64,000 nucleotides of DNA, taken from contig NC_057718.1 in NCBI RefSeq assembly GCF_004010195.1, positions 10,134,044 to 10,198,043 of the forward strand, given 5' to 3'. Positions 3,599 to 60,500 of the stretch are shown piece after piece (the stretch's first letter is position 1; each line of letters opens with the position of its first letter). The notes beneath the pieces are model-generated. The model saw only the letters and a program-made list of their open reading frames with translations, was not told the DNA's origin and searched no databases. The DNA is from Chiloscyllium plagiosum (lineage: Eukaryota). Position numbers and translations under genes: made by a program.

Positions 3599-6500
3599 CT
3601 ACAACAAATCAGAAAAGAAAAAAAAAAATTCTGTGATGGCAGTAAAAGAAAAGTCATCCATTTTGGTCTGTTTTAACCTCACGCAAGATGAGGCACCAAG
3701 GGAACGGTTTGGCTGGAATCCCCGCACGCAAGGATCAGTCTTTCTAATTCAAGAAAGAAGGGAGATTTGCATTTATAGATAACCTCAGTACGTTCCAAAA
3801 TACTTTACAGCCAATGAGTTATTTCTGACATGCCCTAACTCTTTGTTTTGTATCTTCAAAAACATTTGTTCTGTTTGGAGAATAACAGGGAAGTGTCAGA
3901 AGGAATGGTATCAACTGTTTGCACCATGTTGTGCTCCCTCTTTCCCTGGTCAACAAGCTGGATTGGGATTTGAGCCTATATTGACAACTGAGAAATACTG
4001 ACCAGTCACCTGAACCTCAGTTGATGTGTTTATTAACTTATGACGTGCATCAGCCAATTTGCACACAATAATCTCCTACAGCGAGATGAGATAATTTGTC
4101 TTTTAGTTCAACCAGCAGAAGGATATGAACTAAGAGTATTCTAAAGGTTCACCATCATCTGAGTGGAGCAGTTGCTCCTGATAGCAGCCCTAAATGGCCT
4201 GCTCCCCAATCTCAGACCGTGTTAGTGATTCTCAATCTCTCAGCCAGGGGATACGTCCCTCCTGTAGCCATCCTGGTGAGCTCTTTATGTGCTTACGAGT
4301 GGCACGAGAGCGAGCTTAAAATTAAATAGTGGGGGGTGGATGGGGTTCAATTGCACGGGCAATTATAGAAAAAGTTAAAGTAAACAGGGCTCAGCAGAGG
4401 TTATTAAAGGTTCTAGAACAAGTAATAGGACACAGAGAATGGAAAGGGTCAGGAGAATGGGATTGGGAAACATATCATGAATGGTGGAACAGACTCAATG
4501 GGATGAATGCTTAAAAATGTGTTGCTGGAAAAGCGCAGCAGGTCAGGCAGCATCAAAGGAATAGGAGAATCGACGTTTCAGGCATAAGCCCTTCTGCGCT
4601 TTTCCAGCAACACATTTTTAAGCTCTGATCTCCAGCATCTGCAGTCCTCACTTTCTCCTCAATGGGATGAATGGTCTAATTCTGCTCCTGTACCTTGTGG
4701 TGTCATAACCAGTTGTAGCAGTACCAGCCCTATGTTGAAGTCAGCTTAGAGAATTAAATCTGAAAATGTGTTGCTGGAAAAGTGCAGCAGGTCAGGCAGC
4801 ATCCAGGGAACAGGAGAATCGACGTTTCGGGCATAAGCTCTTCTTCAGGAATCCCACATTCCTGAAGAAGGGCTTATGCCCGAAACATCGATTCTCCTGT
4901 TCCCTGGATGCTGCCTGACCTGCTGCGCTTTTCCAGCAACACATTTTCAGCTCTGATCTCCAGCATCTGCAGACCTCACTCTCTCCTCCTTAGAGAATTA
5001 AATGCAAAACTTGCTATAATAAACAGTTACTAGGCACAGAAACATTCAGGAAGGTCATTATTGCAAATGCACTGTAGGATAACATGATAATTTGCAAGCA
5101 TTATTGGCTGCTTTCTCTTTTGTAACTTATCTACCCAAATGATGCCTGTTCCACCAGCAAAGTCCTACCTGATTGGATAAAGCAGTGAATATGCTCCATC
5201 ACCAGTTCCGAGGACAGTCCAATGGCATGCTTAAAATTGGCAGCAGCCATTTCCCAGTACGATTGGTCTCCATGGTTACGTTGAAGCCAGAGAGACATCA
5301 CTGGAAGGAGGAGATGGGTGACAGCAAAAATCCCAAATCCAGGACCTACAGAAGTCAACAAGACATTGTCTTACAGTCAGGACAAGGTTTGTAAGTATTT
5401 CTGTGGCAGACGTAGGCCTGAAATCTTAGTAGGTATTACTCTAATCACAAAGCGGAGCCGTTGTCATGATCATAAATGAGAATACAGAACTTCGGCGCTC
5501 ATCATTTATAAAGCACCTTGAGAGTTTTGAAATCTGTAATTGTGTATTATTTCCTGTAGTAAACTTACTGAATTAAATGCCATTTACACAATCCTACACA
5601 TGGCCATAGAATCCCCATAGTGCAGAAAGGGGATATTTAACCCATTGTGTCTGCATCATCCCACAGAAGAGCATCCCATCCAGACCCAACTCCCCACCCA
5701 ACAGAACATAGAACATAGAAAAGTACAGCACAGAGCAGGCCCCTTGGCCCACAATGTTGTGCCGAGGTTTAACCCTGATGTAAAATATAGTAACTTAACC
5801 TATGCACCCCTCAACTCACTGCTATCCATGTGCATGTCTAGCAGTCGCTTAAATGTCCCCAATGACTCTGCTTCCACCACCACAGCTGGCAATGCATTCC
5901 ATGCATTCACAGCTCTCTGCGTAAAGAACCTATCTCTGACATCTCCTTTATACCTTCTTCCTAATATCTTCAAACTATGACTCCTCATATCAGTCAATCC
6001 TGCCCTGGGGAAAAGTCTCTGGCTATTGACTCTATCTATTCCTCTCATTATTTTGTACACCTCGATCAGGTCTCCTCTCTTGCTCCTTCTCTCCAGAGAG
6101 AAAAGTCCAAGCTTAGTCAACCTTTCTTCAGTAACTTTGCATTTCCCACAGCCAGTCAACCTAACCTGCACACCTGTGGATTGTGGGAGAGAACCGGAGC
6201 ACCTAAAGGAAGCCCACACAGACATGGGGAGAATGTGCAAACAGTCACCCAAGGATGGAATTGAACCTAAGTCCCTGGCATTGTGAGGTAGCAGTGCTAA
6301 TCACCGTGCTGCCCATGCAACAAACACCAAGTTATAAGGTAGGGCTGTACATGCAGGAGGATGAAGGAGCAGATTGTGAAGGTGGGAAAACGAGATTTCT
6401 ATTCGAATGAGCAAATCAGTTGCCCCTTTGTGGCAGTGCAGGAGTGCCATTTCTCTCACCCCATTCCCATCTTATCCTCACTACCTGGTACTTTCGTGAC

Positions 6501-9500: not shown

Positions 9501-12500
9501 CTCAACACCCCTAAATCAAAATCCCCCCTAAACATGCTGATACGCTAGCGCCGGAGATGACTGTATATCCAGGAATAGCTGATTCCAGTCAGTGTGTAGA
9601 GCCATTTCATTCAGGGCCAGAGAGTGGACAGATGGACACGACACTCTACCCTGCTAACGCTGAGCATGTTCATACACACTAACTCCGGTTCTTCCTCCGT
9701 ATGCACAGCCTTCTCCAGCATTCGCATTTTTCATTTGATATTAGGGTATTCCTGCTGGAATCATCAAACAATCTCCAGGTCCATTGATTTAAGCAAGGAA
9801 CTCAATCTAAATTGGCTATCTTTCTTGAAGCAATATTCGGGAATAGTCTTTACCTGCGAACACTTCCTGAGGTAATCAAGGGCGGGAAGGCACAAGTCTG
9901 TTGAACTGGATCCCAAACCAGTATAGCAATCTCCTATTTCTTTACAATCCTCATCACCTTCAGATGTATTAAAAAAAACAGTATTAACTTCAGTACTCCA
10001 CAATCATTTGAAACACACACTATCAATTATTTTGGTTTCTTTCCTAGTTTTCCTGAAGATGTTAATTCTTTCCCTACATTCAAAGGATCGGTGCTGGGTT
10101 CATTGCTGTTTGTTAGCTATATCAATAATTTGGATGAGAATGTACTAAAATAGATGATACTAAAATAGGCGGTATCATGGACAGTGAGGAAGGTTATCAG
10201 AAATTGCAGCAGGGCCTTGATCAGCTAGGGAAGTGGGCCCAGAAACAGCAAATGGAGTTTAATACAGATAGGGTGAGGTCTGGCACTATGGAAAGTCAAA
10301 TGAAGGTAGGAGTTTCATGGTCGAGAGTGTGGTGCTGGAAAAGCACAGCAGGTCAGGCAGCGTCAGAGGAGCAGAAAAATTGACGTTTCGGGCATAAGCC
10401 CTTCATTAGGTATCGGGACGCTTATGCCCGAAATGTCAATTCTCCTGCTCCTCTTTTTCCAGCATCACACTCTTGACTCTGATCTCCAGCATCTGCAGTC
10501 CTCACTTTCTCCTAGGACTTCCATGACAAATGGTAGGGCTTTAAGGAATCTGATGGAACAGAGGGACCTTGGAGTTCAGGATCACAGTCCTCTGAAAGTA
10601 GCGTCACAGTAGACAGGGCAGTGAAGGCGGCTTTTGGCACACTGGCCTTCATCAGTCAGGACATTGAATATAGAAGTTGGGAAGTTATGTTGCAGTTGTA
10701 CAGGACGTTGGTGAGGCTGCACTTGTTCATTAGGGAGACACAACTGGTGGTAGTTTAAGCTGAGGGTGAGCACACCTCAGGCAAGGGGAGAGGTTGAGAA
10801 GGAGAGTCCTTCATGGTATTGAATACATACAGGAGGCACCATTCTGTATCACAAACCAACCGTTCAGCCAACTGAGCTAATCAACTGGCCTGGATCAGTG
10901 CTGTAAAACTTTTTAATCATTATATAGATAGTCTTAATTTTCCATAAGAGCAAGCTTACCCAAACCCTTGACAAACTTCATAAGGCACATTATGTAGTCA
11001 GTGGCTGCGTTAGCAAACACTTGAATGTTATCCGTGTTCAGGAATGCTTCAAAGACATCAAAAACTGGAGCCTGGGATTTTCCTGCCGATGAACAAAGTG
11101 ACTCAGCACATGACAGTAAACATAGTCCGTCTACATCTAACCACACCCCTTCACAGCCAGACATTTGGCAGCAAGTCCCCAAGGGAGTTACAATCTCTTT
11201 CTGGTTCAGAGTTCCACCATCCCTAATTGCCTCTTGGGACAACTGAATGCATTCCTAGGCCAGTTCAAAGGACAGCTAAGAGTTGACCACATTGCCATGG
11301 GTTTGGAGTCACATGTAGACCAGACTGGGTGAGGAAGGCAGATTTCCTTCCTTAAAGGGGCATTAATGAACCAGATTACAAAAGCACAGTGGTTTCATTT
11401 TTTACCATTACTTTTTTTCTAGATTTTATTAATTGAACTAAATTTTCCAGCATCTGAGGTAGGGGTTGAACTAAAGTCATTGGATTATTAGTCCAGGTTT
11501 CTAAATTGCTAGCTCAATAATAAATTACATTTATTCACTGCCTTCCTACAATGAAACATCCCAACGTGCTTCATATAACCACAATGCTACCGTAGCCCTG
11601 TTTTGGCAGTAACATTGCTGATAATACAGCACAAAATGTTTAAAGGTCAGGTCAATTTTAGACTTTTAATAACAATACACATCCAGAACTGAGAGGCTAT
11701 TAATTAGCACTAGACTTCTCACAAGGGCATTATACAAACTGGGTGAATGTTAGACCAAACACAAAAGTATTAGACAGTATTATAACTGACAGCATTATAA
11801 AGAGAGCGAATGATTGTCTAGTAATTGCAATCCTCATCATGAAGGAAGTGTATCATAGTGCTATGATAACCTTATAGCTGTAATGTCATTTAATGGGAGG
11901 AAGAGCATCAAATACAGGGTAGTATAAATAAATGAAAGACTTGCATTTACAGTATATAGCATTTGTCACAACCATTGGATATCTCAATGCAGTTTACAGC
12001 TAACAAACTATTTTTCAAATGCAGAGCTGAAAATGTGTTGCTGGAAAAGCACAGCAGGTCAGGCAGCATCCAAGGAACAGGAGAATCGACGTTTCGGGCA
12101 TAAGCCCTTCTTCAGGAAGCTGTATTTTTCAAATGTAGTCAATATTACAAATTAGGAAATGGGTTCAATGAGCTCCCACCAACAGTGGGAGAACCAGGAT
12201 GTGGGAGACCCGCGCATTAGAGTAGGCAAGATTAGAGATAATAAAAGCAAGAATTCAGCCACAATCGAGCTAAGGCAGTGTTGGACAATGAGACAGAGGT
12301 GGGAATATTTGCAGATATGCAGTTATGAGTTCATTTAGGGGTCAACCATGGATCTAGGGTTGCCAAGAGTCTGGGTCTGTTTCAGAGGAAAACCAGGCAA
12401 AAAGGATGAAGCTGGTGGCTAGGGAGTAGAGTTTGTGACTGCGCACTGATGGCTGTTGTTATGACAGGAGCAATAAACTATTCACAGAAGCTTATGGCAG

Positions 12501-15500
12501 CAAGGAATGGGATAAAACAGGGTCAGTGAGAGATAGTTAATGACAGTTAATGACAATGTAGCAACTGCACGACTTACAATAATGGAATTCGTGGCATAAG
12601 ACAAATGGAACAATACCTTTGAGATAAATAATTACGAGTGATTGTTAAACATTTCAAAAATAAATTAATATTGCTTATTATTTCCCTTAATGAAACAGTG
12701 CTGTATCAATGACTCAGATGAGACAGTACAGTCAGTGCAGGTTGTGCAGAGTCCCCATTACCTTACTCACCCATTGTGTAGTCACCAATCAGATATTCCT
12801 TCACATCGGACTTGTTACTGTGCACGGTTTTCAATGCACTGAAGAGTGGTCGCCAACCAGACTGGATCTGTGGGGAACAAACCTCCACCAGCTCTCCAAT
12901 CGATGTGATCACCTAAAAGTTAGAGGCACGTATATTTAAATGTCTGTTTTCATCGTGATGGCTACCCCATAACCTCCACAATCTTCTTTCCTCACCTTCT
13001 AAATTCTTACACTGAAGAATGCCAGAAGAGGCCGTTCAGCCCCTTGACCCCTGTTTTGCCATTCATTTTAAGCACTGGTTGATCTGCATTCTAACCTCAC
13101 CCACTCAGCTTTCGTCCATCACCCTAATACCTTCAACAAAACAAGAACTGACCAATCTCAGATTTGACCAGGCTCTCAAGGCATGCTTCACTCCAGAAAT
13201 AAAAGAGAGAAAGAAGCAAACAAGAAGGTTGAAATAAAATTACACCCCTCAGGCCTGTTCCATCTCTCATTTACAATTTACTGCTTGAAATATGCAAGGT
13301 GAAACATACAAGGTTGTTGGAGGAAAAACAACTGAAAGAACTGCAGATGCTGGAAATCACAAACAAATAGAAAATTTGCTGGAGAAACTCAGCAGGTCTG
13401 GCAGTATCGGTGGAGAGAAATCAGTGTTAGTGTTTCAAGTCCAGTGACCCTTCTTCAGACCCTGTCGGTAGCTAGGAAGAGATTGTTTTTTATGTATTAG
13501 CCTCAAAGACTTCCTGGGAAAAGCAATTTCCGAATTCCCTTCATTTAAAGAGGTGCTTCCCAGCAATACCTGAAAATGGCCCAGCTCTAATTTTAAGGGT
13601 ACACCCTCTTATCCTGCTCATTTTCTACCTTCCATCACTAAGTGCCTCAATCAGATCAAACCCATGACCTCCTATACTTAGAGATTAATACAAACATTGT
13701 TTTTGCAAACTGTCCTAATTTAAGCTTTACAGTTTGTGTTGTGACTTTCTGAAGTAATTATTATCTTTCAACTTTGTGGATCACAAAAAGTCACCAAGCA
13801 TTGAAGAAGGTCAGGGTGGGTTCTAGGGAAGGGAGGCTCTTTCTCCCATATGGGCCTCAACTAAAACGAACCATTTTAGGGCCTCAATGGGCCCAAAGGT
13901 GACGGGCTATCTGACAGCTCCTCCTGCTCCCTCTCCCCCGCAAAGCTCAGACAGGTTAGATAATGGTGGGGAAGTGGGCAGGTAGCTGTCAAGTTCACTG
14001 ATGAGAGATCATAAAACTCAACCCAGTGTCACTGGGAGTCAGTAAATGACTAGGCCTAGGGCTCATGGTAACTAGGAACCCAGGAATCACACCGGCTAAG
14101 GCCTGACAGCCTTGAGAATCACAGGCCTGGATCCTTCATTGCTTGGTCAGGGGAACAGACAAAGGGAATTGTGGCTGATGAGATATTTACCAGACAAAGC
14201 TGATATTGTATCCTACCTGATCTTGCACATCATCGTCACACAGTTCCAACTGCATGATGTGTTCAAATGGTCGGAAAAGGGCCTCATTGAAGTGAAAATG
14301 TGGCAGCTCATTCCAGTCAGTTAGAACTTCAGTCAGGATATCATGGATAAAGGAAACAGCTTTCTGGGAAACATGCCTCTCCTTGTGACAGGCAGCCTGG
14401 ACAAAGCAAAAATCCTTATTTAGTTCCAATACAAAAAAAACGAAAGGGGAGAAAAACACATTTTATAAAAATCTACTTTAGTTCTCATGAAGAATTTCCA
14501 GAAGTCATCTTTTGCCAACATTAAAATAAGAAAAACATTTCTGGAAACATTCAATGGATCCAGGAGGCAAAGAGTTAACGTTTCAGGTCAATGATCTTTC
14601 CTCAGATCTGGCAGAAAGTTTATGACCAGTCTGTTCAAAGTGATGACAATTTGTCCATCGAACTTTGAGTCTAAATGCCTTAACGATGAGGCACAGCGGC
14701 AATGGAGAAGGAATGCAAAGGAGGTAAATCCTGAACTCTGGGTCCCATTACCCCTTGGGGCATCCAATTTCCCCAGCCCTCTCCCCAGCAGCAGCATCGC
14801 ACGATCCTGAGCCAACACCTTCCGCAAATTTAGAGTTTAGCCAACATTTGTTATGTGCCCAACTTAGCCAGAATGTTTTTAATGATCAGGTCACTGATAT
14901 TAGATAAGGAAAAAACCATTGATCAGGAAACAGGGGAGAGCTCCCCCACTTTCCTTCTGGATATGTGCACCCCAAAGAGCAGATAGTGTCTCAGGTTAAT
15001 GTCTTATCTGAAAGCAAACAGCCTGACAATGAAGCACTCCCTCAGTCCCACACTCAGGGTGGATACCAAAAGCCAATGATGCCTGATACCAAAGGTCAAT
15101 GATGCCTGATAGTGGGGAATACAGGAATGGAATTCGGTGCTTACCTCTGCTAAGTGAGGTCCAACTACACTCCAGGTCTTCATGAGGTGCAACAGGGGAC
15201 GGGACCGGCTCCGAACAATTCGGAGCATCACATCACCAAGTCGGAAGAGATGCAGAGCGCTCCTCCGCTCGTGGGTGGATCTAGCGTCTCCTGTCGACCA
15301 AAGCAGAAGATGAATTAAAACGTAACCAAATCCATTCCTATCAATGTCACAAATGGCAGGTCGTGTGACTGTGACTAAGGGTAAACTTCTCTTCCTCATC
15401 CTTCTCAATCCGACATGGAAGATTCTGTATCCTTATTTATAAAGACCAGCATTTCAGATTCCTTTCTCAACCTGCCCTGACACACTTTACAAGCTCATGC

Positions 15501-24500: not shown

Positions 24501-27500
24501 ACTTTTACTTCTGTAATTTGATTATCATGGTGGCCAGTCACTGATCATATTCACAAGAGGCTGCCAATGTACTTTTAACAAAAGAACATATTACACAAAG
24601 AATAAGAAAAACAATATTAGGCAACTTTTAAAGATATCATAAATAACTGTATTCCCAACAATATCCTTTACAGATACTCAACCTCAGTGAATTATCAATC
24701 TAATCTTCACCCTTTAATATCTTACTAATCTGACAAGGTTGCAAGTGTTTGGTTTTGGTCAACTTTTACACACTCAACAGGAATAATTCTTTCAGTCTCT
24801 TCTGCAGAATCAGAAACACAGGCTAAATCACTGGCATCTTTCTTTGAACTCTGAGGGGAAAAACTCAGGGCTTTCTTCCAGCTACTTTGAGAATGCTTAT
24901 TAGCAGATCTGCTGGTTTATATCATTTCTTCTTAACTAAACCTGCCTCTGACCTTTGTTTCTGAGTTGTAAAAGTTCAACTTTGTACACAGTTCAAAGAT
25001 TACCTCACCAGGTAGCTTATCTAGTCATTTAGTTTAAGTCACTTAATTTCTTGGAAATGTTATTGTGACTCATTGCTTAAAAAATGAGATTCTGACCCTT
25101 TATTAACAAATAAACAAGTTACCATCTCAAAAGTGAAAACAAAAAAAAACATTTATAACCTAAATTTCTAACCAAAAATAACATAATCTAAACTTTTAAC
25201 CACAGGACAGACATGGAGCATTTGACCAACAGGTAACAAGTTCCATAGTTACAGGAAGTGATACCACACCACATGATCCTGCACTCACATGGAGACCACA
25301 TATGGCAAAGTGAAACAACTGTCAAATGTTCCTGAAATAAACGTGAATCTTCTCCTTACCTCAGCAGATTCAGCAGGGCCTGGGAGGGTCATTGAGACTG
25401 GCAACCCCACAACTTTTAAAAAGGACTTGGATGAGCCTTTGACACCCCCCAATATTCAAGGCTATGGGCCTAGTGCTGGAGAGTGGGATGAGTGTTGATT
25501 TAGTGCAGCTTTGTCGGTCCAGTCTTTATGGGTCAAAGGGCCTTCGATGTTCTGTATGATTCTATGATTGTTTAGCAGCACCACAGGAAAAAGGACCTGC
25601 ATCCTCACTCTGCCAAGATTGGACAGAGATAGCAAACCACTATTGACTAAAACAGCCAAGAGAACAGCTCAGGATGATGCATCAGGGACAATGAACCAGG
25701 GAGCTCCTTGTGGGCAGAGTCACACATGACTGACTGATTCTGAGACCTACAGGCCCTGGATTCACCCACATGTATTAACATATTGGACATGTCTTTCGGC
25801 TTTCCCATGGGAATTTCGTGAAAGGTACAGTAGACCTTAACTCGACCTGATTCCCAAGGCTCCCATATTACTTACTTGTCAGCCATTGTGGAGAGTGTGC
25901 AGACAGCCCTGGCCGCATTGTTCCCGTTCAGCACGCCTCCTCCTCGGAAGTCAAATGCCTTCCCCTTGCAGTTCTCCTTGATCAGTTCCTGAATGGTGAC
26001 CGCCTGAATGACGGGATTGCCGATGTTAGTGTCCAGCTCAGTGCTGGGGTTCCTGATGGAGCTCAATGCTATGTCCGCAGGTTGCAGGGAGCTGGAGGCT
26101 TGCTGTGCCTGTGTGATGGCGATGGGAGGCTGAGAGCCTCCGTCACTGAAGTGACTGTGCTCCAACGTACTGATGTACTCACACACTCTGCGGAGAGACA
26201 TGGAAACCCATTTACAGCCCGTTCCCCTGATACCGAACCACACTGTAAACCATACAGTCAGAGAGAAATACAGTACAGAAATAGACCCTTTCAACCAACT
26301 CATCCATGCTGACCAGATGTCCTAGTCTGATCTAGTCCCATTTGCCAGCATTTGGCCCATATCCTTCCAAACCCTTCCTATTCATATACCCATCCCGATG
26401 CCTTTTAAATGTTGTCATTGTACCAGCCTCCACCACTTCCTCTGGAAGCTCATTCCTGTGTGAAAAAGTTGCCCCTTAGGTCCCTTTTAAATCTTTCCCC
26501 TCTCACCCTAAATGTATGCCCTCTAGATCTCGACTCCCTCACCCTGGAGGTAAAAATAATGACTGCAGATGCTGGAAACCAGATTCTGGATTAGTGGTGC
26601 TGGAAGAGCACAGCAGTTCAGGCAGCATCCCAAGAGCAGTAAAATCGACGTTTCGGGCAAAAGCCCTTCATCAGGAATACAGGCAGAGAGCCTGAAGGGT
26701 GGAGAGATAAGTGGACCCTGGAGCCTATCCATGCTCCTCATGATTTTATAAACCTCTATAAGGTCACCCCTCAGCCTCCGATGCTCCAGGGAAAACAGCC
26801 CTAGCTTATTCAACCTCTCCTTATAGCTCAAACCCTCCAATCCTGGCAACATCCTTGTAAAGATTTTCTGAACCCTTTCAAGTTTCACAACATCCAACCA
26901 CTTGTTATTTCACAAGCTTTTGTGAAATTGGATATTGATAATTCATTTCTTTAAAGAAATTCTCTAACATACAGGGGTGTGGTGGTAAGTGACAATGTCA
27001 CCTGGCTAGCGATCCAGAACCCCAGGCCAATATTCTTGGGGATAGTAAATTTAAATCCCACAAATAATCATGATGAAATTTGATTTCAGTAAAATCTGGG
27101 AATAAAGAGCTGGCCTTAATGGCAATCATGTAATCATTGTCAATTGTCGTAAAAACCTTATCCGGTTCCCTAATGCCCTTTAGTGAAGGATGTCTGCCAT
27201 CCTTATATGGTTTGGCCTACATGTGACTCCAGACCACAGCAATGGACTTGACACTTAACTGTCCTCTGACCAGTTAAGGAGGGGCAATAAATGCTGGCTC
27301 AGACACTGATTCGCATAACCTGAATAAATAAAAAAAATTATTGCCCATTCTTAATTGTCCTTTAACTACAACGCTAGATAGTCCACTTCAGAAGGTGTTA
27401 AAAAGTCAAACACATTGCTGTAGATCTGCAGTTACAAATACTGACAAAATGTACAGGTCCATGCCACCATTACTGAGGTTGGTTTTCTATTCAAAATTTA

Positions 27501-45500: not shown

Positions 45501-48500
45501 TTTGAAGAGGTAACAGGGAAACCCAGTGGATGGTATCTATCTAGACTTCCAAAAGGCCTTTGATAAGGTGCCTCACGGGAGGCTGCTGAGTAATGTGAGT
45601 GCCCATGGTGTTCGAGGTGAGCTACTGGCATGGATTGAGGATTGGATGTCTGACAGAAGGCAGAGAGTTGGGATAAAATGTTCTTTTTTGGAATGGCAGC
45701 TAGTGACAAGTGGTGTCCCGCAGGGTTCAGCGATGGGGCTGTTCACTTTATGTAATAACGATCTGGATGAATAGACTGGGGGCATTCTGGCAAAGTTTGC
45801 TGATGATTCAAAGTTAGGTGGACAGGCAGGTAGTTCTGAGGATGTGGGGAGGCTGCAGAAAGATTTAGACAGTTTAGGAAAGTGGTCCAGGAAATGGCTG
45901 AAGAAATTCAATGAGCAAGTGTGAGGTCTTGCACTTTGGAAAAAAGAATACAGGCATGGACTATTTTCTAAATGGTGAGAAAGTTCATAAAGCCAAAGTA
46001 CAAAGGGATCTGGGAATGCTAGTCCAGGATTCTCTAAAGGTTTACTTGCAGGTTGAGTCCGTGATTAAGAAAGGAAAGGTAATGTTGTCATTTATCTCAA
46101 GAGGGTTAGAATATAAAAGCAGCAATGTGCTACTGAGACTTTATAAAGCTCTAGTTAGGCCCCATTTAGAATACTGTTGCCAATTTTGGGCCCCACACCT
46201 CAGGAAGGACATATTGGCACTGGAGTGTGTCCAGCGGAGATTCACACGGATGATCCCTGGAATGGTAGGCCTAACATACAATGAATGGCTGAGGATCCTG
46301 AGGATTGTATTCATTAGAGTTGAGAAGGTTGAGGGGAGATCCTCTAGAAACTTACAAGATATTGCATGGCTTAGAAAGGGTGGATGCTGGAAAGTTGTTT
46401 CCGTTAGGCGGGAGACTAGGACCTGTGGGCACAGCCTTAGAATTAGTGAGGGTCAATTTAGAATGGAAATGAGGAGACATTTCTTCAGCCAGAGAGAGGT
46501 GGGCATGTGGAATTCATTGCCACAGAGCGCAGTGGAGGTTGGGACGTTAAGTGTCTTCAAGGCAGAGATTGATAAATTCTTGACCTCGCAAGGAATTAAG
46601 GGATACAAGGAGAGTGTGGGTAAGTGGCATTGAAATGCCCATCAGCCGATGGGCCGAATAGCCTTACTTCCACTCCTATGTCTTATGGTCTTATTTGAAA
46701 TTCTTTACCAGACTGTAACGGCAATCTTTTAACTAATTTGTAACTTTCTTATTTCTAACTTATTTTTTAGACACTCTAAGTAATGCTACTACTTTTCCTT
46801 TTATTCCTCTTTGGATCCAAGATTTGTACCGAGGTATTTGTATCTAAGATGGTGCGATTACAGGCCAAGTAGAAAAGGCACCTCTCCTGCTCCTTAGACG
46901 CCAGTTTCCCAATCCTCCCGCCACCCCTTGCCAGAAGCAGCTTGGCACCGCCCGCTGATCTACCTGTCCATCTTCCTTCCCAACTATCCACTCCACCCTT
47001 CCCACCAACCTATCAAAATCATCTCCTACCTGCATCCACCTGTTGCATCGTAGCTACTTTTCCCCTAACCCCTTCCCCCTAATTACTTCACAGACTCCTT
47101 CCTCCTCCCCAGTCCTGATGAAGGGCCCTGCCCAAAATGTTGACTCTCCTGCTCCTCAGATGTTACCTGACCTGCTGTGCTTTTCCACTCTTTTCTCTTC
47201 TGTGAATTCTATCTACTCTGACTCTCCAGCACCTGTCGTCTGCACTATCTCCTAGTTGCCATTAAGGGCAGGCATTGTAAGGGTTTTAACTGTACTCTTG
47301 CACTGGAGTGCACATGACAACAAAAAGGATATTCTATGACAATTTTCTGTTACCTGCAGTCACGGAATCAGGTGTGTTCTTTTCCTGGGCGAGAGGAGAT
47401 TGTTCTGACGCTGTACTGACCATTTGCCCTCCTACTGCACTGCTTCCCAGGCCATCCATATCTGCAAATAAAACACAGCACAGCATTTCTTTAGCACGTT
47501 TAGTGCAGAGCTCCCACTGACACCATCATGTCTGCCAATCAATTGGAGACTGGGGTGCAAGGATTCATGTAGAACATTCCATTTTGCAGCAAAAAAAAAG
47601 CCTTTATACTCAGCAGGCAGTCTTTTTAAACAGCACACAGCAGCAAACAGTCTACAATCTATGTCAAAATTACACTACAGCAGTCTACAGAATCTAATTA
47701 AGCATTATACCACACCCAGCCTACAGAGTCCATTAAAATACTGTAGTACACTAAACAGTCCACAGAATCTATTTAAACGTTACATTACAACAAGCAGTCT
47801 GTAGGATTTATTTAAAGTAGTACAGTGTAGCCAACAGTCTATAGGATCATTTTAAGCTTTATACAGCCCCAGAATCTACTTCAATACAGCACGAGAACAG
47901 ACTACAGAATTTATTTAAACAGCACATAACCGTAATCCACAGAATTTACTTAAACAATCTAGACTGCAGTCTATTGATTCTATTTGTACCATACACAACA
48001 TCAAACAGGCTGCAGCATCTCTCAGCTACACTTGTTATATTGACTAAAATGAGAGCAATGCCTCCTGATAAAAGCAGGCAGATTTCTAAAGCAAAGGGCA
48101 TGAAGTGAAGATAATTATACTGTACAGGTATAAAGTGAATTCCAGCAGTGCAGGCTCCAGGTATGAAGTGTGACATGTTTATTGAGGTCTTCAGATCTTG
48201 TGCAAAACAGCAAAAGGGGTGGCATGCAAGGAGGTGAAAGAACAGCAAGTGAAGTGTGAGGGGGGCTGGGTAGGGGATAGAGAATGAGGTGGAAAAAGTG
48301 GGGTTCTGAGGTGGGGCAAGTAAATAGATGGAGACCATGATGGTGACATTGCACATATACCTATGGATAAAGTGAGTGCCACGTTCCTGTATCTGGTGCA
48401 CAACAATGATGTGTGTGGCACCAATGTTCTGTTCCAGTGTGAAGGGAGGAGGTACAGTGAAATTACAGCAGGAATATCCTACGTAAACAGAACCAGCCAT

Positions 48501-54500: not shown

Positions 54501-57500
54501 CTCTCATCTGAAAGATGGCACCTCTGACAGTGCAGCACTCTCTCAGCGCTGCACAGGAGTAAGTGACAGCCTAGGTCAAATGTCCAGTCTCAGGAGTGCC
54601 ACATGAGCACCACATGAGCCAAGGCATTCTGCCCTCACATTGGCCAATATGGGAGCTATCTACTCTCATTCCTGTCTTTGCGACCATCTGCTTTTTCAAC
54701 GACAGCTTCAAAACTGAGTTGGCCACAAAGGGCTTATAGATTTCACAGCTTGGCCAGTCAGAAGAGTTAAGGGGTTTGGGTGGGGGTGGAGGCAGTGGTG
54801 TGGGGTACCTGACTGCAGACCCGAGCAAAACGTCGAGGCAAAACTCTGCAGGGATGAGTCGACCTCCTCTGTGTTCTGTAACGACAGGAGACGAGGGAGG
54901 AGCGTGACAAGAGACTGGACAAATATCCGGGCACTGTGCTGGTCAGCCTCCTGGTTCTTCAGGACCTTCAGCGTGAGGGTGGCTCCATGCAGCGACCTGT
55001 GACCCAGGCAGTCCCTGGGCGTTTGCTCCTCATCCGCCAGGGAACAGTTATCGGAGCCGATCTCAGAGACGTCTGACCTGCCAGAGTCTTTCTCCGCTGC
55101 CATCGAGTACTGATCGCAGGAGTCGAACTCAGTCCTGGAAATGTCCTGCTCGTCGATGCTAAAATTACTCTCGCTATACCGGGACCCGGGTGGTTTGTTC
55201 ACCCTGGGGTCGACCGACAAGAAGTTGGCTAAATCCGGATAGGCGTGCATGTTGTTTCGATGGATGCCTTCCAGCGTTTCCGCCTGCTCTAGTCCCAGCG
55301 TTGGCATTTTGCTCAGGGCCTCGTTAATGTCAAGGCCAGCAGAGTAGTCCAAATGGTTTCTCAGCAGAGGGGGGTTCTCCTCCGGGGTGGTCTGCCCCAT
55401 GCCCTCCTCCAGGGTGGTACGCCCGGTGTCCGTGGTGACGCTGATGCTAATGTCGGGGCTCTTCTCGTTGCTGGACTCCCAATGAGCGTGCTCGGCCGAC
55501 AGGATACGTCTCTGCCACCTGAAGTCGGCCTCGCTGATCTCCATGGACTCCCGGGTGGACTCGGTGCCACCCTTCAGCTCCTCCGAGTGCTTGAGCAGGT
55601 GCCGCACCTGCTCCTCACTCAGCCCCTTCCCCTGGCTCAACTCATCGAGGGCCGCCAGCAAGGTGCAGACACAGGACACTGAGGCATAGCAGGCCTCAAT
55701 CCCTCCTTTGATGCAGGCCTCTGTCATTCCGTCCATGATGCTGGTGAGAGAAAGAGAAGTGTAACACTATAAGAGGTCAACCCTCAAGAACCCTCGCGTT
55801 TCTTTTCAGAGAATCATACAGCACGCAAGAGGCCCTTCGGCCCATCCAGCCAAAGCTAACTTAAATCTGCATGAGTCCCACATTCCCACAACGTTCTGAC
55901 ACTTCAGCTGCTCATCCAAGTGCTTTTTAAAGTTACGAGGTTTCCCACCTCAACTAGGTGAAAGTGAGGACTGCATTTGATGGAGAACAGAGTCAAAAAG
56001 TGTGGTGTCGGAAATGCACAGCTGATGAGGCAGCATCCGAGGAGCAGGTGAGTCAACGTTTCGAGCATAAGCTCTTGGAGCAAGAGACTCGACATTTCGA
56101 AGAGCTTATGCTCGAAACATCGATTCTCCTGCTGCTCAGATGCTGCCTGACTGGCTGTGCTTTTCCAGCACCAGACATTTTGACTCTTCCCACATCAACT
56201 ACTCTCCCAGGCAATACATCCCAGATTTCTATTCAGTCCATTAGCCACAGATAGACCCACAACGCAGTTAAAGAGGGAACTCCGGTATTTTGACCCAGTG
56301 GCAATGAAAGCACGGCGATATATTTTTAAGTCGGGATGGTGAGTGGCTTGGAGGGGAACTTGCAGGTGGTGGTGTTCCCATGTATCTGCTGCCCTGGTCC
56401 TCCGAGATGGAAGTGGTTGTGGGCTTGGAAGCTGAGGAGCTTTGGTGAGCGTTAGATAAGCTATTACTTCTGGTGGGGTATCGCAGAACTGAGATAATAA
56501 CCTTAACATTACAATTACTCTTTCACGGAATGTGGGAACCTCTGGCAAGGCCAGTATTTGTTGTTCATCCCTCATAACCTCGAACCGAGGGGCTGACCAG
56601 GGCAGTTTGTGGGTATACAGTCACATGAAAAGGTTTGTTAGACTAATCCCTGGAACAAGTGGACTGACTTATGCAGAAAGAAAGGCTACATCTGTATCCT
56701 CTGGAGTTCATTAGAATCAGATGGTGACTTAATTGAAACATATAAGACCCCGAGGGGGCTGACTGGTGGGGGGGGGGGGGGGGAATGTGGAAAGGATTGA
56801 TCCAGTTCTGGGGAAATTTAGAACTCGGGGCCTGAGTTTAAGATTAAGGCCTCGCCCACTTAAAACAGAGATGAGAAATATTCCCTTTCTCTCAGAAGGT
56901 TCTGAGTCTTTGGAAATACCCTCCTCAAAAAGGCCGTGGATGTCGAATCTTCTATTGTTTTTAAAACCAAGGTAGGTAGATTCCCTATTACTGAGGGGAT
57001 GAAAGATTATCAGGGGTACATAGGAATGTAGAATTAAGGTTAAAATCAGAGCAGCCGTGACCTTATTGAAAGGCGAGACAGGACCGAAGGGCCATGGGGA
57101 CTATTCTTGTTTCTTTGTTCATATGCAGGCCAAATTAAGGACAGCTGAGTTCCTTTGCTGAAGGACACTAATGAACCAGAAGGGTTTTTACACCAATCAC
57201 CTTTACATTCCAGGATTATAACTGAATTTTAGGTAGAGCAAGGGCAAGGTGGTATTTGAATCCTTGTTTCTGGAGCATTAACAGGAGTTTCCGGCCTGCA
57301 GATTATTTGACAAGTGACTTTCCCAGATGGAAATGTGTTGCTGGAAAAGCGCAGCAGGTCAGGCAGCATCTAGGGAACAGGAGAATCTGCCTGACCTGCT
57401 GCGCTTTTCCAGCAACACATTTCCATCTCTGATCTCCAGCATCTGCAGACCTCACTTTCTCCTCAAGTGACTTTCCCATCATACCAAAAGCACCCCTAAC

Positions 57501-60500
57501 ACACGGAAGGGGAAAATGGTGATGAAATAAACCAGTGGCGAAACACAAGTCAGATCCATCGAGTGCGTGGCTTACATTTTGTGAAGATCCAGGTGAGACT
57601 TTCTCTTCTGACTGGACCTTCTCTTGGTTTCCCCTTCATATACAGTCGGGCCAGCGAGATCGTACAGGCGCTGGGGGTTGCCTAGGACCTGTCCCGATAG
57701 ATGTGGATAAGTGTTAATGCAGTTAAAACAAAAGGCACAGTCCTAACTACTCACCACTGGATGCCATCTTGACTTGGAGTCGCTTGGTCATGAGTTCAAA
57801 TCCTCACTTGGGAACTTTGGGCACAAAATTGGAGCAAAGGCTCTCAGTGCCCACACTGAGGGAGTGCTGCATTGCCAGAGATGCCAGATTTCAGAAGTTG
57901 CGTGACCCTCTCAGGCAGTTGTAAAAATTCCAAGTCTACTGTTTAAATCAAGATCAGAGGTGTTCTCCCTGGCACCTTGGTGAATAGGGGTCAAAACGTG
58001 TGGTGTTGGAAAAGCACAGCCAGTCAGACAGCACCCGAGGAGCAGGAGAGTTATATTCCACATCCACTGCCTTTTGAGGAAGAGAATTCCCAAGATTCAC
58101 AAACTTCTGAGAGAAAGAATAATGTTTCTTCATCTCTGTTTTAAATGGGTGATGCTCATTCCTGATGAAGAGCTTATGCTCAAAATGTTGACTCTCCTGC
58201 TCCTCGGATGCTGCCTGACTGGCTGTGCTTTTCCAGCACCACACCTTTTGACTCCAATTTCCAGCATCTGCAGTCATCACTTTCTCTGCCTTGGTCAATA
58301 GTCATCCCTCAACCTAAAGCAGGCCTTCATGAGGTTTTCATTTGGGGGCGGCATGGTGGTTCAGTAGTTAGCACTGCTGCCTCACAACACTAGGGTCCCA
58401 GGTTCGATTCCAGCCTCGGGTGACAGTCTGTGTGGAGTTTGCACATTCTCCCTGTGTCTGCGTGGGTTTCCCCCGGGTGCTCCGGTTTCCTCCACAGTAC
58501 AAAGATGTGCAGGTCAGGTGGATTGGCCATGCTAAATTACCCATAGTGTTAGGTGCATTAGTCGGAGGGAAATGGTTCTGGGTGGGTTACTCTTCAGAGG
58601 GTCAGTGTGGACTGGTTGGGCCGAAGGGCCTGTTTCAACACTGTAGGGAATCTAATCTAAAAAAACTTGGGATGGGGGTGTAGTTCAGAGTGAACCATGT
58701 TGGTGGGGGCCAGGAGTCACATATACAGCCCCAGGCAAAAGGTTGTAGGATTCATTTATTCATTCATGGGATGTGGGTGTCGCTGATGAGGCCAGTATTT
58801 ATTGCCCATCCCTTAGAGTCAACCACATTGCTGTGGGTCTGGAGTCACATGTAGGCCAAACCAGGTAAGGATGGCAGTTCCCTTCCCTAAAAGACATCAG
58901 TGAACCAGATGGGTTTTTCCCCACAATTGACAATGGTTTCATGGTCATCATCAGACTCTTGGTTCCAGATGTTTATTTAAGTCAAATTCCACCGTCCGCC
59001 AATGGTAGGACTCAAACCTGGGTCCCCTGATGAACAATCCAGTGGTCACACCACTAGGCCATCACCTCCAATGTGGAATGAAAGACACCAACACACCTCC
59101 TTCATGATCTTGATAGCCTCTACCCGATGTTGTGGTGGTGGATACAGCAGAAGGCGATGGTAAAGGGACTGCAGGACTGGCCTCAGTGACTCCAGGCAGC
59201 CGACAAGCCGCACCAGCTCCGCTGCTATGTAGTAGATGGTGCGTGCCACAGGTCCAATGAGTGCAGGCGCTGTGGACGAACAGCCTGATCCGCGGCCATG
59301 ATCGGAGACGCCGGTCAAAGAAGCCTCAGTCTCCGTCAGCGAGGCGACATGACCTGACGAGATGGTCTTATCATGGATAGGGTTACCCAGGATGACAATC
59401 AGGGCTGGACAGAGCTGCTTCCTGCAACAACATGGAAAGGGGTTCAAGGAAGAAGCTTGGACAACAATAACTCACATTTAAATAGCACTGTTAACAGAGT
59501 AATGTTACCAGGATACTTCACACAAGGGCATTATCAGGTGACTGAGCCACTTGGTCAACAGCTTGAAGGAGGAGAGAGAGAGTTTGAGAGATTTAGGGAA
59601 ACCTTATCTTCAGCTTGGGGCCTAGCTAGCAATAATTTGTACTTTTATAGCATCTCTTACATAATAATACACTGCCCCAAGGCAGTTCACAGAGGCACCT
59701 ACAAACAAAATATAACATCGAACCACTGAAGGAGAAATTACAACAGATGACTAAAGCATGGACAAAGAGATAGGTTTTGAGGAAGTCTTAAAAGGAGGAG
59801 GATGTGGAGAGATTTTATTGAAGTAAGTTCACACCGAGAGTTGGGCACTAATTGTGTCAAAGTTAGCTGTTAGTTCTTTGTCGCAGAAATAATTGGACCA
59901 ATCAGACACAATAACCTTTACTTAGCAACAGAATTAGTTATGGATCGTGTCAGTGAGGTACAGAGTACATCTGCTCTCCAGTACTGCTGCTTCAGATTGC
60001 TTTCCAGTCTTAGGGACTAATGTTTTGTTGTGGATAATAATTTACACCAGCTTAAGATATGCCTCATTATTGTATAATTAGATTTAGAATTAAATTTAGG
60101 TTTTCATCATGGTGGGATCTGAACTCATGTTCCTAGATAATTAGCCTGGGCCTCCGGATTACTAACCCAGTGGCATCGCTACAACACCCTATCTCCCCCC
60201 CCCCCCATCTGATTGGTCGAATGGTCTTCTGGTCACCTGTCCTTGGGGGAATGTACTATGAAGTACAAAGACAAGTAATCAGGATAGATTAGAATGGACA
60301 GTGAGGCTCTTAAAAGCCAAACAGTCTAACACAATCGAAGTTTTTATGTTAGTTTTTATGCCCTCTTTGATGAACAACCTCCACACTTTCCCCGCACCAT
60401 TTTAGTTGGTGTTTTCTGCAGCACATAACAGAGACACCAAGTTGGCAACAGAAACTGCTGCCAACAGACAGTTGGCAGAGACCTGGCATCAGTGAACATT

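What the first reader, a model, noticed from the sequence alone, without database searches (positions are those of the whole stretch)
4819..58190. Dense family of intronic mini-retroelements carrying a minimal hammerhead ribozyme
Seen in sequence: the motif tc-CTGA(A/T)GA-a-GGGC-TT(A/T)T-GCCC-GAAAC-(G/A)TC-ga recurs, intact on the minus strand at 12086-12118, 21170-21202 and 26645-26677, on the plus strand at 4859-4891 and ~27652-27684, and with point mutations in about 10 more copies. Stem II covaries: GGGC/GCCC becomes GAGC/GCTC at ~56063, ~56102 and ~58170. The flanking tc/ga can close helix I. Established: CUGANGA...GAAA...NUH is the hammerhead catalytic core, and Penelope-like elements are known to carry minimal type I hammerheads with a palindromic, very short helix III. 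Inference: helix III here is only the palindrome ACGU, so cleavage after GUC should need two copies (dimeric hammerhead). Several intact single-arm copies are in the sense orientation of the ARFGEF3 pre-mRNA, so host introns could carry self-cleaving sites. The family looks like a non-autonomous, retrozyme-like system in a shark; I cannot tell whether it is already catalogued.
Basis: partly seen in the sequence, partly recalled or inferred. Interest (0 to 1): 0.78.

Follow-up and report, generated by a model that had tools for sequence, protein, structure and literature searches.

The report
Penelope retroelement tails with minimal hammerhead
The repeated motif is the small hammerhead-ribozyme signature carried in the tail of Penelope-like jumping genes, here amplified to tens of thousands of mostly cut-down copies in a shark genome, which is a known kind of element and not a new one.

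Summary
CTGA(A/T)GA-A-GGGC-TT(A/T)T-GCCC-GAAAC-GTC occurs 12 times in the window at up to 3 mismatches, against 0 expected. Its exact 30-mer occurs 55,661 times in the 3.56 Gb genome.

The copies are not a self-standing retrozyme-like family. They are 5'-truncated, internally deleted or head-to-head inverted copies of the 3' end of an endonuclease-bearing Penelope-like element (PLE). The motif lies about 155 nt downstream of the stop of an ORF that ends in a GIY-YIG nuclease. Insertions show PLE hallmarks: 13-15 bp target duplications, an inverted upstream partial copy, and a 35-bp extension at one end.

The motif fits the published "min-HHR" of PLEs feature by feature (PMC4209133). Cleavage was not tested. 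Non-CpG core positions are better kept than the tail (0.975 against 0.829), and helix II carries one compensated change.

The host gene is ARFGEF3 on the minus strand, so the three fully intact copies are sense-oriented.

One lead is new: copy 5' ends pile up 4 nt upstream of the CUGA box, not at the cleavage site.

The parts
4514..4660 (.). Inverted (head-to-head) pair of PLE tail copies. The minus arm keeps only the 3' half of the hammerhead.
4760..4990 (.). Inverted pair inserted as one event, flanked by the 14-bp target duplication TTAGAGAATTAAAT. Hammerheads at 4824-4848(-) (GAGC/GCCC mismatch, ACGUC kept) and 4862-4886(+) (ACAUC). Only the plus arm has the 35-bp extension.
10328..10513 (.). 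Older inverted pair. The hammerhead at 10385-10409(-) has core G5 changed to A (CUAAUGA).
12022..12118 (-). Single-arm mini copy with a fully intact motif (12091-12115). It starts about 3-4 nt upstream of CUGA and ends at ...TTTTCAGCTCTG. Target duplication CATTTGAAAAATA. Sense to ARFGEF3.
13341..13458 (-). Copy of a different tail family: CUGAAGA-A-GGGUC-ACUG-GACUU-GAAAC.
19317..19413 (-). Old, decayed copy.
20161..20294 (+). Old copy (ATGA/TTAT type) in which G12 is A.
21108..21369 (-). Internally deleted copy. About 35 nt of the element's 5' region, including the ORF start, are joined to the 3' UTR 136 nt upstream of the CUGA box. Intact motif at 21175-21199. Sense to ARFGEF3.
22395..22591 (.). 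Inverted pair whose axis lies in the helix II loop. There is no CUGA box.
26563..26714 (-). ATGA/TTTT subfamily copy with an intact motif at 26650-26674, extending about 40 nt upstream. Sense to ARFGEF3.
27555..27772 (.). Inverted pair of the TTTT subfamily. 27590-27614(-) has a mutated core (CUCACGA). 27655-27679(+) reads ACAUC.
32184..32268 (+). TTTT subfamily copy with core G5 changed to C.
32643..32769 (+). Old decayed copy.
36204..36324 (-). ATGA/TTAT copy. The motif at 36292-36316 has G10.1.U11.1 in place of G-C (CpG decay).
44531..44608 (+). Tail-only fragment downstream of the hammerhead.
47107..47187 (+). Old decayed copy.
55956..56181 (.). Inverted pair of the GAGC/GCTC subfamily. 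Both arms lack the CUGA box.
57325..57464 (.). Inverted pair without a hammerhead. One arm begins at, or 1 nt from, the predicted cleavage site (GUC|GAUUC).
57999..58049 (-). Tail-only fragment beginning within about 2 nt of the predicted cleavage site.
58157..58286 (+). GAGC/GCTC subfamily copy with G12 changed to A and CpG decay.
62302..62366 (-). Tail fragment.
54711..55766 (-). Host ARFGEF3 (BIG3) exon inside a 352-aa open frame. It fixes the host sense strand as minus.
   Evidence: E 1.8e-185, 71% identity, to proteins named brefeldin A-inhibited GEF 3 / ARFGEF3
14190..14462 (-). Open frame holding a host exon with a Sec7-like HDS match.
   Evidence: PF09324, E 7.1e-5, 23.0 bits against a cut-off of 23.5

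Best explanation
The repeats are copies of the 3' end (pseudo-LTR region) of endonuclease-bearing Penelope-like retrotransposons of a shark. The recurring motif is the minimal type I hammerhead (min-HHR) that PLEs carry there.

Shown:
- The motif lies about 155 nt downstream of the stop codon of an ORF whose last ~135 aa hold a GIY-YIG nuclease motif.
- Copies are 5'-truncated at many points, or internally deleted, or paired head to head. They are bounded by 13-15 bp target duplications and carry a 35-bp extension at only one end.
- At least four tail families in this genome carry the same core with different helix II sequences.

Inferred:
- New copies arise by target-primed reverse transcription by the element's own RT/EN. 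Most stop, or their template ends, 4 nt upstream of the CUGA box, which gives the ~95-130 bp 'mini-elements' seen in the ARFGEF3 introns.
- The hammerhead, lacking helix III, could only cut when two copies pair through the ACGU palindrome, and probably does so inefficiently.
- The scattered intronic copies are dead on arrival, many with CpG-decayed cores, and are unlikely to cut the host pre-mRNA.
For: Abundance:
- 12 window matches against 0 expected.
- 55,661 exact 30-mers genome-wide, reversed-pattern control 0.

Link to a PLE:
- In 26 loci fetched with the sequence upstream of the window copy, homology runs upstream to different end points from -136 to at least -445 relative to CUGA.
- L018 and L059 show ...IYCIxCTRCGLLYIGET...EH...HF... 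followed by a stop about 155 nt before the motif.
- Pfam GIY-YIG E 4.7e-4, 20.8 bits.
- Homologues in three orectolobiform sharks, 84% identity to a Chiloscyllium punctatum protein. One of them, P0003, has GIY-YIG at 23.2 bits (above the cut-off) C-terminal to an RVT_1 match.

PLE insertion anatomy, as described in PMC8557442 (passages read) and PMC2377424 (passages):
- Target duplications at 4760-4990, 12022-12118 and L059.
- An inverted partial copy upstream of the long copy in L059.
- A 35-bp segment that starts the unit and also ends some copies.
- In inverted pairs one arm ends near +96 and the other near +60.

Fit to the min-HHR definition (PMC4209133): CUGANGA and GAAA boxes, an unpaired A between positions 9 and 10.1, G10.1-C11.1, no helix III, palindromic ACGU.

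Constraint:
- In 41 old copies (under 90% identity to the young reference) non-CpG core positions match at 233/239 = 0.975. The tail matches at 1507/1818 = 0.829 and N7 plus loop II at 87/126 = 0.690.
- Helix II 2x2 table genome-wide: GGGC/GCCC 7,314, GAGC/GCCC 763, GGGC/GCTC 896, GAGC/GCTC 1,942, giving an odds ratio of about 21.
- Other families keep the core with other stems. CUGAUGA-A-GGAGC-NNN-GCUCC-GAAA-GCUA, with palindrome AGCU, has 6,485 matches. Another has a 7-bp helix II.
Against: - The reverse-transcriptase part of the one long copy fetched (L059 2785-4991) reads N because it is withheld. RT is therefore inferred only from homologues, where RVT_1 scores 22.7 bits, below Pfam's 29.6 cut-off.
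- GIY-YIG in the element's own product is just below Pfam's cut-off (20.8 against 22.6 bits).
- Rfam hammerhead models do not match.
- Helix I is only 2-3 bp.
- The RNAcofold minimum-energy dimer (-24.9 kcal/mol) pairs the imperfect palindrome GAAaCGuCGaUUC. This uses core nucleotides and is not the catalytic helix III register, which scores -18.9 without helix I.
- The downstream tail is also strongly conserved between subfamilies, so conservation of the block is not specific to the ribozyme.
- Copy 5' ends at the predicted cleavage site are few: 111 against 50,015 copies that run through it. About three quarters of the 100 listed share one junction, CAG|GATTC.
- The conservation test uses local BLAST alignments that reach the motif only where it is similar, and its cells are not independent.
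- Published min-HHRs cleave poorly in vitro (PMC4209133). Eight of nine Xenopus dimer constructs did not cleave (bioRxiv 10.64898/2026.07.22.740005, passage).
Confidence: 0.87

Rival explanations
1. One reading: the ~100-220 bp units are a self-standing non-autonomous, retrozyme-like family that spreads through hammerhead-processed (possibly circular) RNAs.
For: - The short form dominates. In the unselected sample (window plus nine random 10-kb stretches), 11 of 18 young copies start between -36 and -20.
- 3,797 of the 30,558 AAGA/TTAT copies carrying the ATTCC prefix have a non-homologous purine triplet immediately upstream, placing the break at -32.
- A 2026 preprint argues that animal retrozymes derive from PLE pseudo-LTRs (abstract and Results read).
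Against: - There are no head-to-tail hammerhead repeats in the window. Pairs are inverted, so one transcript carries one sense and one antisense motif.
- Copies grade continuously into coding PLE sequence.
- A copy that starts at -32 lacks the sequence upstream of it, so it carries no evident promoter of its own.
- 3' ends lie 61 or 96 nt past the cleavage site, not at it.
Confidence: 0.07
2. The hammerhead-like block is kept for a reason other than self-cleavage. It could be part of the core promoter or 5' leader of the pseudo-LTR transcript, or of the RNA signal that the PLE RT recognises. The ribozyme core would then be vestigial or inactive in these shark families.
For: - 5' boundaries pile up at A(-32) inside TCATTCC, which fits the initiator consensus YYANWYY (consensus recalled). 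Counts are 3,797 at -32, against 2 at -50, 194 at -36, 1,014 at -28 and 24-111 at 0 to +8.
- A TTATCT box about 30 nt upstream, and ATTCC itself, are kept in three subfamilies while the sequence between them differs.
- D. virilis Penelope starts transcription inside its pseudo-LTR from an internal promoter (PMC2377424, passages).
- The whole -33..+61 block is conserved, not only the core.
- PLE clades without hammerheads proliferate well (PMC8557442, passage).
Against: - The pattern of constraint follows hammerhead rules. The free position N7 and loop II vary (0.69) while invariant core positions do not (0.975).
- Helix II changes are compensated.
- Unrelated tail families keep the same core, the bulged nucleotide, G10.1-C11.1 and a 4-nt palindrome with different sequences, ACGU against AGCU.
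Confidence: 0.3
3. The family is a SINE or LINE tail of another clade (for example a V-SINE or CR1-type tail) that matches the hammerhead core by chance.
For: - Sharks hold abundant SINEs and LINEs (recalled).
- The window has LINE remains (RVT_1 and Exo_endo_phos_2 matches at 21880-22815 and 44016-45771).
Against: - The upstream sequence of long copies is GIY-YIG coding sequence, not an AP- or REL-endonuclease LINE.
- No tRNA-like head is present. Copies are 5'-truncated at many points.
- The descriptor scan found 84 motifs in 343 kb against 0 in shuffled sequence.
Confidence: 0.02

Closest known systems
Minimal hammerheads (min-HHR) in the pseudo-LTRs of metazoan Penelope-like elements (Cervera & De la Pena 2014, PMC4209133)
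   Same: [quoted passage not shown]
- No helix III, and a palindromic 15.2-16.2.
- Location near the 3' end of a PLE.
- Thousands of mostly solitary copies, with pairs on opposite strands ~100-700 bp apart.
- Consensus families with compensatory changes.
   Different: - Helix II here is 4 bp in the main families, where the paper reports mostly 7-8 bp in Schistosoma.
- The copy number is far higher: 55,661 exact 30-mers, against the ~4,000-9,000 motifs reported for coelacanth and Xenopus.
- In the text I read (parts 1-2 of 4; supplements not opened) no shark is named.
- Activity is untested here.
Canonical EN+ Penelope-like elements (Penelope/Poseidon, Neptune clades), as described in PMC8557442 and PMC2377424
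   Same: - A C-terminal GIY-YIG endonuclease.
- Heavy 5' truncation and partial tandems (the L059 insertion begins within the last ~30 nt of a preceding unit).
- An inverted 5'-truncated upstream copy.
- A 34-37 bp repeat or 'tail' at one end (35 bp here).
- Target duplications.
- A hammerhead near the 3' end.
   Different: - The clade was not assigned, because the RT region is withheld.
- I saw no description in the passages read of the sharp pile-up of 5' ends 4 nt upstream of the hammerhead.
Non-LTR retrozymes of animals (PMC7229834, search listing and abstract only; bioRxiv 10.64898/2026.07.22.740005, abstract and Results)
   Same: Type I hammerheads, small non-coding units, and a proposed origin from PLE pseudo-LTRs.
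   Different: - Retrozymes are head-to-tail tandem repeats with a hammerhead in each unit, and they give circular RNAs.
- The copies here are dispersed single arms or inverted pairs, with 3' ends 61 or 96 nt beyond the cleavage site.
HDV-like ribozymes at the 5' ends of non-LTR retrotransposons (R2 and others; cited within PMC4209133, otherwise recalled)
   Same: If the shark transcript really starts at -32, a self-cleaving motif would sit at the very 5' end of the element RNA and could trim it.
   Different: The ribozyme class is different. The shark motif needs a partner copy. No 5' processing is shown.

Membership tests
min-HHR of PLEs (PMC4209133) | Conserved catalytic boxes CUGANGA ... 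GAAA, with a cleavable H (here C) after the 16.1 U | tested here: met
   Five exact window copies and 55,661 genome-wide.
min-HHR of PLEs (PMC4209133) | [quoted passage not shown] | tested here: met
   A bulged A and GGGC/GCCC. The same holds in the GGAGC/GCUCC and 7-bp families.
min-HHR of PLEs (PMC4209133) | No helix III or loop 3. Positions 15.1-16.1 form a palindrome, so two copies can pair. | tested here: met
   ACGU in copies 12091, 21175 and 26650. It is CpG-decayed to ACAU or AUGU in others. AGCU in a second family.
min-HHR of PLEs (PMC4209133) | Lies in the flanking repeat or 3' region of a Penelope-like element | tested here: met
   About 155 nt downstream of the stop of a GIY-YIG-ending ORF in L018 and L059.
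min-HHR of PLEs (PMC4209133) | Self-cleavage as a dimer | not testable with these tools
   Only folding was possible. The minimum-energy dimer uses another register.
EN+ Penelope-like element | Single ORF with a C-terminal GIY-YIG endonuclease | tested here: met
   The motif is visible in the translation. Pfam E 4.7e-4 but 20.8 bits, below the 22.6 cut-off. Homologue P0003 scores 23.2 bits.
EN+ Penelope-like element | Telomerase-like reverse transcriptase N-terminal to the endonuclease | tested here: inconclusive
   L059 2785-4991 reads N. Homologue P0003 has RVT_1 at E 9.3e-5, 22.7 bits, below the 29.6 cut-off.
EN+ Penelope-like element | Insertion anatomy: 5' truncation, partial tandem (pseudo-LTR), inverted upstream partial copy, 30-40 bp extension at one end | tested here: met
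   compared with passages of PMC8557442 and PMC2377424.
Non-LTR retrozyme | Head-to-tail tandem units, each with a hammerhead | tested here: not met
   No such array in the window. Neighbouring motifs are on opposite strands.
Non-LTR retrozyme | Circular RNA products | not testable with these tools
   No RNA data could be laid.
Rfam hammerhead families | Score at or above the gathering threshold | tested here: not met
   0 matches at gathering, and no hammerhead family among the 21 matches at E<=10. This is expected for a motif without helix III.

The most novel reading that the evidence does not exclude
The hammerhead sits at the exact 5' end of a transcript that starts at A(-32) inside the pseudo-LTR, at the initiator-like TCATTCC with a conserved TTATCT box ~30 nt upstream. 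The abundant ~95-130 bp mini-elements would then be complete cDNAs of a short hammerhead-leader RNA.

In that case the ribozyme would have one of two roles. It could trim the capped 32-nt leader off element RNA. Or, by pairing two RNAs through its palindrome, it could set up the twin, head-to-head insertions typical of PLEs, whose axis lies at the ribozyme's 5' edge.
Probability: 0.2. Interest if true: 0.6.

Novelty: new member of a known kind. Interest (0 to 1): 0.3.

Why it matters
The finding itself is ordinary. It adds a shark, at very high copy number, to the published picture that Penelope-like elements carry minimal hammerheads, and it shows the 'mini-retroelements' are truncated element tails.

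Two things are useful. First, the size and youth of the family (tens of thousands of near-identical copies) make it a good natural data set for asking what the PLE hammerhead does, which is still open in the literature. Second, the sharp 5' boundary 4 nt upstream of the ribozyme, with only a weak signal at the cleavage site, gives concrete predictions: an RNA 5' end at -32 and little cleavage in vivo. 5'-end mapping could settle both.

Tried and rejected
- Rfam at gathering and at E<=10 gave no hammerhead family.
Expression and RNA ends are therefore untested.
Only nine 10-kb stretches were obtained, so whole-genome pattern counts were used instead.
- The p=-4 control pattern got no answer and was not repeated.
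- Test for cleavage-site 5' ends: 111 at position 0, against 33 (+1), 24 (+4) and 59 (+8). This is a 2-5-fold excess, but most cases share one junction (CAG|GATTC) and include a tandem array, so they may not be independent events. I do not count it as evidence of cleavage.
- Cofolding did not return the catalytic dimer as the minimum-energy structure.
- The SINE / other-LINE reading was rejected.
- Earlier notes of this scan held nothing on this genome or sequence.
- Literature searches for a shark hammerhead or PLE description found none. This covers only the held library; Repbase and Dfam could not be consulted.

Full report
**Observation.** The 25-nt pattern CTGAWGA-N-GGGC-TTWT-GCCC-GAAAC has 12 matches in the window at up to 3 mismatches, and none in 100 dinucleotide shuffles. 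A looser core-only descriptor has 10 matches against 0.08 expected.

Reading the copies in register shows that the two plus-strand copies have GAAAC-A-TC. The G of the central CpG has decayed, and the ACGU palindrome is broken. Only the three minus-strand copies keep everything.

The GAGC/GCTC variant is at 56056-56075(-), 56101-56120(+) and 58169-58188(+). The first two are the arms of one inverted insertion and have lost the CUGA box. The third has G12 changed to A.

BLAST with one natural copy gives 29 HSPs in the window. Rfam reports no hammerhead at its thresholds or at E<=10. Its sub-threshold matches are mostly microRNA-hairpin models that respond to the inverted pairs.

**Scale.** The window lies in a 3.56 Gb assembly. 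The exact 30-mer CTGAWGAAGGGCTTWTGCCCGAAACRTCGA occurs 27,896 + 27,765 = 55,661 times, and the reversed-pattern control gives 0. Two young subfamilies dominate. With the ATTCC prefix and CpG decay allowed, AAGA/TTAT has 30,558 copies and ATGA/TTTT has 32,151.

**What the copies belong to.**
- Some copies extend upstream of the motif.
- I used the 141 nt upstream of the 21175 copy as a query. The genome returned 40 scored matches of 386 candidates.
- In the 26 oriented loci, homology runs upstream to different end points: -136, -150, -182 and so on, to at least -445 relative to CUGA. This is the ragged 5' truncation of a retrotransposed long element.
- In L018 the sequence beyond -445 translates to ...IIYCILCTRCGLLYIGET..., and after a frame shift to ...EHFREHL...VAQHFNSPSH...RLEEERLIFRLGTLQPQGMNSDF...*. 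The stop lies about 155 nt before the motif.
- A protein search with that piece scored 150 of 111,209 candidates, all 93-100% identical.
- One locus, L059, has the same C-terminus in frame (P0001). Pfam gives GIY-YIG at E 4.7e-4, 20.8 bits, just under the 22.6 cut-off.
- The middle of L059 (2785-4991) reads N because it is withheld, so I did not see the reverse transcriptase.
- Database relatives of P0001 are uncharacterised proteins of Chiloscyllium punctatum (84% identity), Rhincodon typus and Stegostoma tigrinum. One of them has GIY-YIG above Pfam's cut-off, C-terminal to a weak RVT_1 match.
- RT followed by GIY-YIG is the architecture of endonuclease-bearing Penelope-like elements (PMC8557442, abstract and passages).

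**Insertion anatomy.**
- Target duplications. L059 is bounded by the 15-bp duplication CTTGTCATCACATAG, which encloses both an inverted partial copy and the long copy. The pair at 4760-4990 is bounded by TTAGAGAATTAAAT. The single arm at 12022-12118 is bounded by CATTTGAAAAATA.
- Partial tandem. The long copy in L059 begins within the last ~30 nt of a preceding unit. This shows that the 35 nt TCTGATCTCCAGCATCTGCAGACCTCACTTTCTCC, which ends some copies, is the start of the next unit.
- Asymmetric pairs. In most of the listed inverted pairs (L059 is an exception, both arms ending near +63) one arm ends near +96, with this extension, and the other near +60, without it.
- Published match. Craig et al. 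list exactly these traits for PLEs: strong 5' truncation, partial tandems, an inverted 5'-truncated upstream copy, and a 30-40 bp 'tail' at one end only (PMC8557442, passage). Schostak et al. describe a 34-37 bp repeat at the ORF start and the 3' end of Drosophila virilis Penelope (PMC2377424, passages).
- Internal deletion. The window copy at 21108-21369 joins ~35 nt of the element's 5' region, including its ATG, to the 3' UTR.
- No head-to-tail hammerhead array exists in the window.

**Fit to the known ribozyme class.** Cervera and De la Pena defined a minimal hammerhead for PLEs: the catalytic boxes, helices I and II, and no helix III, so that two copies must pair. They found it in the flanking repeats of PLEs and in thousands of solitary copies in fishes, coelacanth, frog and reptiles (PMC4209133, parts 1-2 of 4 read; supplements not opened).

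They list features that emerged beyond their descriptor:
- the G10.1-C11.1 pair;
- a palindromic 15.2-16.2;
- families full of compensatory changes.

The shark motif has the first three. Helix I is short: C-G, U-A, a U.U mismatch, then A-U.

**Evidence of constraint.** I sampled about 343 kb: the window, nine random 10-kb stretches and the flanks of fetched loci, with the selected central hits dropped. In this sample, 41 old copies (under 90% identical to a young natural copy) gave these matches:

| Position class | Matches | Fraction |
|---|---|---|
| 10 non-CpG invariant core positions | 233 of 239 | 0.975 |
| 58 non-CpG tail positions | 1507 of 1818 | 0.829 |
| N7 plus loop II | 87 of 126 | 0.690 |

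The Fisher odds ratio for core against tail is 8.0. Two cautions apply. Cells share ancestry, and local alignments reach the motif only in 21-27 of the 41 copies, which favours similarity there.

Genome-wide counts in the ATGA/TTAT background:

| Helix II state | Count |
|---|---|
| GGGC/GCCC | 7,314 |
| GAGC/GCCC | 763 |
| GGGC/GCTC | 896 |
| GAGC/GCTC | 1,942 |

The paired double change is commoner than either single change, with an odds ratio of about 21. It is one subfamily, so it counts as one evolutionary event.

A descriptor scan of the sample found 84 motifs, against 0 in shuffled sequence. Three further tail families appeared among them:
- CUGAUGA-A-GGAGC-NNN-GCUCC-GAAA-GCUA, whose palindrome is AGCU instead of ACGU (6,485 genome matches);
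- a family with a 7-bp helix II, GUUACCU/GGGUGAC;
- the 13458 type, GGGUC/GACUU.

Their helix I pairs next to the core also differ in sequence: G-C/U-A/G-C in one and U-A/G-C/G-C in another (read). This is the pattern expected if the hammerhead fold, and not only the sequence, is kept.

**Evidence against, or neutral.**
- The whole block from -33 to +61 is conserved between subfamilies, while sequence upstream of -33 is subfamily-specific. Conservation of the region alone therefore does not single out the ribozyme.
- RNAcofold's best dimer (-24.9 kcal/mol) pairs the imperfect 13-nt palindrome GAAaCGuCGaUUC, which consumes G12-A14. The catalytic register scores -18.9 without helix I.
- Published min-HHRs cleave weakly and only as dimers, trimers or helix III-extended forms (PMC4209133). 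In a 2026 preprint, 8 of 9 Xenopus dimer constructs did not cleave.

**Where copies begin.** I counted, genome-wide, 30-mers of the AAGA/TTAT family preceded by three bases of the wrong class (purine where the family has pyrimidine, and the reverse). These mark a break in homology exactly at that position.

| Position relative to cleavage site | Count |
|---|---|
| -50 | 2 |
| -36 | 194 |
| -32 | 3,797 |
| -28 | 1,014 |
| 0 (cleavage site) | 111 |
| +1 | 33 |
| +4 | 24 |
| +8 | 59 |

For comparison, 50,015 copies run through the cleavage site. The TTTT subfamily also shows the -32 boundary, in 1,225 of 32,151 copies, but I ran no control positions for it.

In the unselected local sample, 11 of 18 young copies start between -36 and -20. 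Two of the 18 are limited by the query.

Many -32 cases are the axes of inverted pairs (...CTTCAGG|ATTCCTGAAG..., or the perfect palindrome GGAATTCC). Single arms such as 12022-12118, and copies in L005 and L007, start there too.

Most cDNAs therefore end 4 nt upstream of the CUGA box. Few end at the cleavage site. About three quarters of the 100 listed cleavage-site cases share one junction (CAG|GATTC), and some sit in a tandem array, so I do not treat them as evidence of cleavage.

**A reading of the -32 boundary (inference).**
- A(-32) lies in TCATTCC, which fits the initiator consensus (recalled).
- A TTATCT box sits ~30 nt upstream.
- Both are kept in three subfamilies, while the spacer between them differs.
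- In D. virilis the Penelope transcript starts inside the pseudo-LTR from an internal promoter (PMC2377424), and the hammerhead lies downstream of it (PMC4209133).

If the shark transcript starts at -32, the ribozyme is the first 32 nt of the RNA, and the mini-elements are complete copies of a short leader RNA. The alternatives are a strong reverse-transcription stop or a favoured template switch at that point. RNA data would decide, and none could be laid.

**Host gene.** The 352-aa open frame at 54711-55766(-) matches proteins named brefeldin A-inhibited guanine nucleotide-exchange protein 3 / ARFGEF3 (61 hits, best E 1.8e-185, 71% identity). An open frame at 14190-14462(-) has a Sec7-like HDS match; for this I scanned 125 of the 183 open frames of at least 75 aa. 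The gene is on the minus strand, so the three intact copies are in the sense of the pre-mRNA, 5.5 and 9 kb apart. Motif-bearing copies are 7 on the minus strand and 5 on the plus strand, so there is no orientation bias at this sample size. Nothing suggests that they cut the host transcript.

**Verdict.** The 'retrozyme-like non-autonomous family' reading is not supported. The element is a new, very abundant member of a known kind. Searches of the held literature found no description of hammerheads in shark PLEs. Repbase and Dfam could not be checked.

Noticed in passing
genome-wide counts, and window copies 4760-4990, 12022-12118, 22395-22591, 57325-57464: Copy 5' ends and inverted-pair axes pile up 4 nt upstream of the CUGA box: 3,797 at -32, against 2 at -50 and 24-111 at 0 to +8. 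A(-32) sits in an initiator-like TCATTCC, with a conserved TTATCT box ~30 nt upstream.
   Followed up: partly
L062:4595(+), L030:2212(-); 6,485 matches genome-wide: A second abundant tail family has its own minimal hammerhead: CUGAUGA-A-GGAGC-NNN-GCUCC-GAAA-GCUA (palindrome AGCU). It is followed by GTGTGCTTCCAATTAAACCTGTTGGACTATAACCTGG... Its autonomous partner was not sought.
   Followed up: partly
L010:2817(-): A third minimal-hammerhead variant has a 7-bp helix II (GUUACCU/GGGUGAC) and a bulged U. Only a single copy was seen.
   Followed up: no
window 4797-4913, 22451-22569, 57321-57432, 56043-56133: The inverted PLE pairs form long perfect hairpins. They draw sub-threshold Rfam microRNA-precursor matches (E down to 3e-8, all far below gathering scores). 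If transcribed, they could be substrates for small-RNA pathways.
   Followed up: no
G000:C16:42817618-42817932: Five same-strand CAR|GATTC junction matches, each starting at the predicted cleavage site, are spaced 47, 93, 95 and 47 nt apart. This looks like a small array built from hammerhead-less tail units.
   Followed up: no
window 12084-12096 and every copy: The cleavage site lies inside an imperfect 13-nt palindrome, GAAaCGuCGaUUC. In cofolding it out-competes the catalytic helix III register.
   Followed up: partly
window 43037-46630 (+): Remains of a LINE with GDSL-lipase-like, endonuclease (Exo_endo_phos_2) and RVT_1 matches in successive open frames. A further RVT_1 frame lies at 21880-22815(+), next to the PLE hairpin at 22395-22591.
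   Followed up: no
window 29768-31735: A 28-29 bp minisatellite (up to ~24 copies) lies on both sides of a 427-base run of N (30379-30805).
   Followed up: no
window 51936-52006 (-): A weak tRNA-model match (25.8 bits, below the 29-bit gathering score). It may be a SINE head or a decayed tRNA.
   Followed up: no
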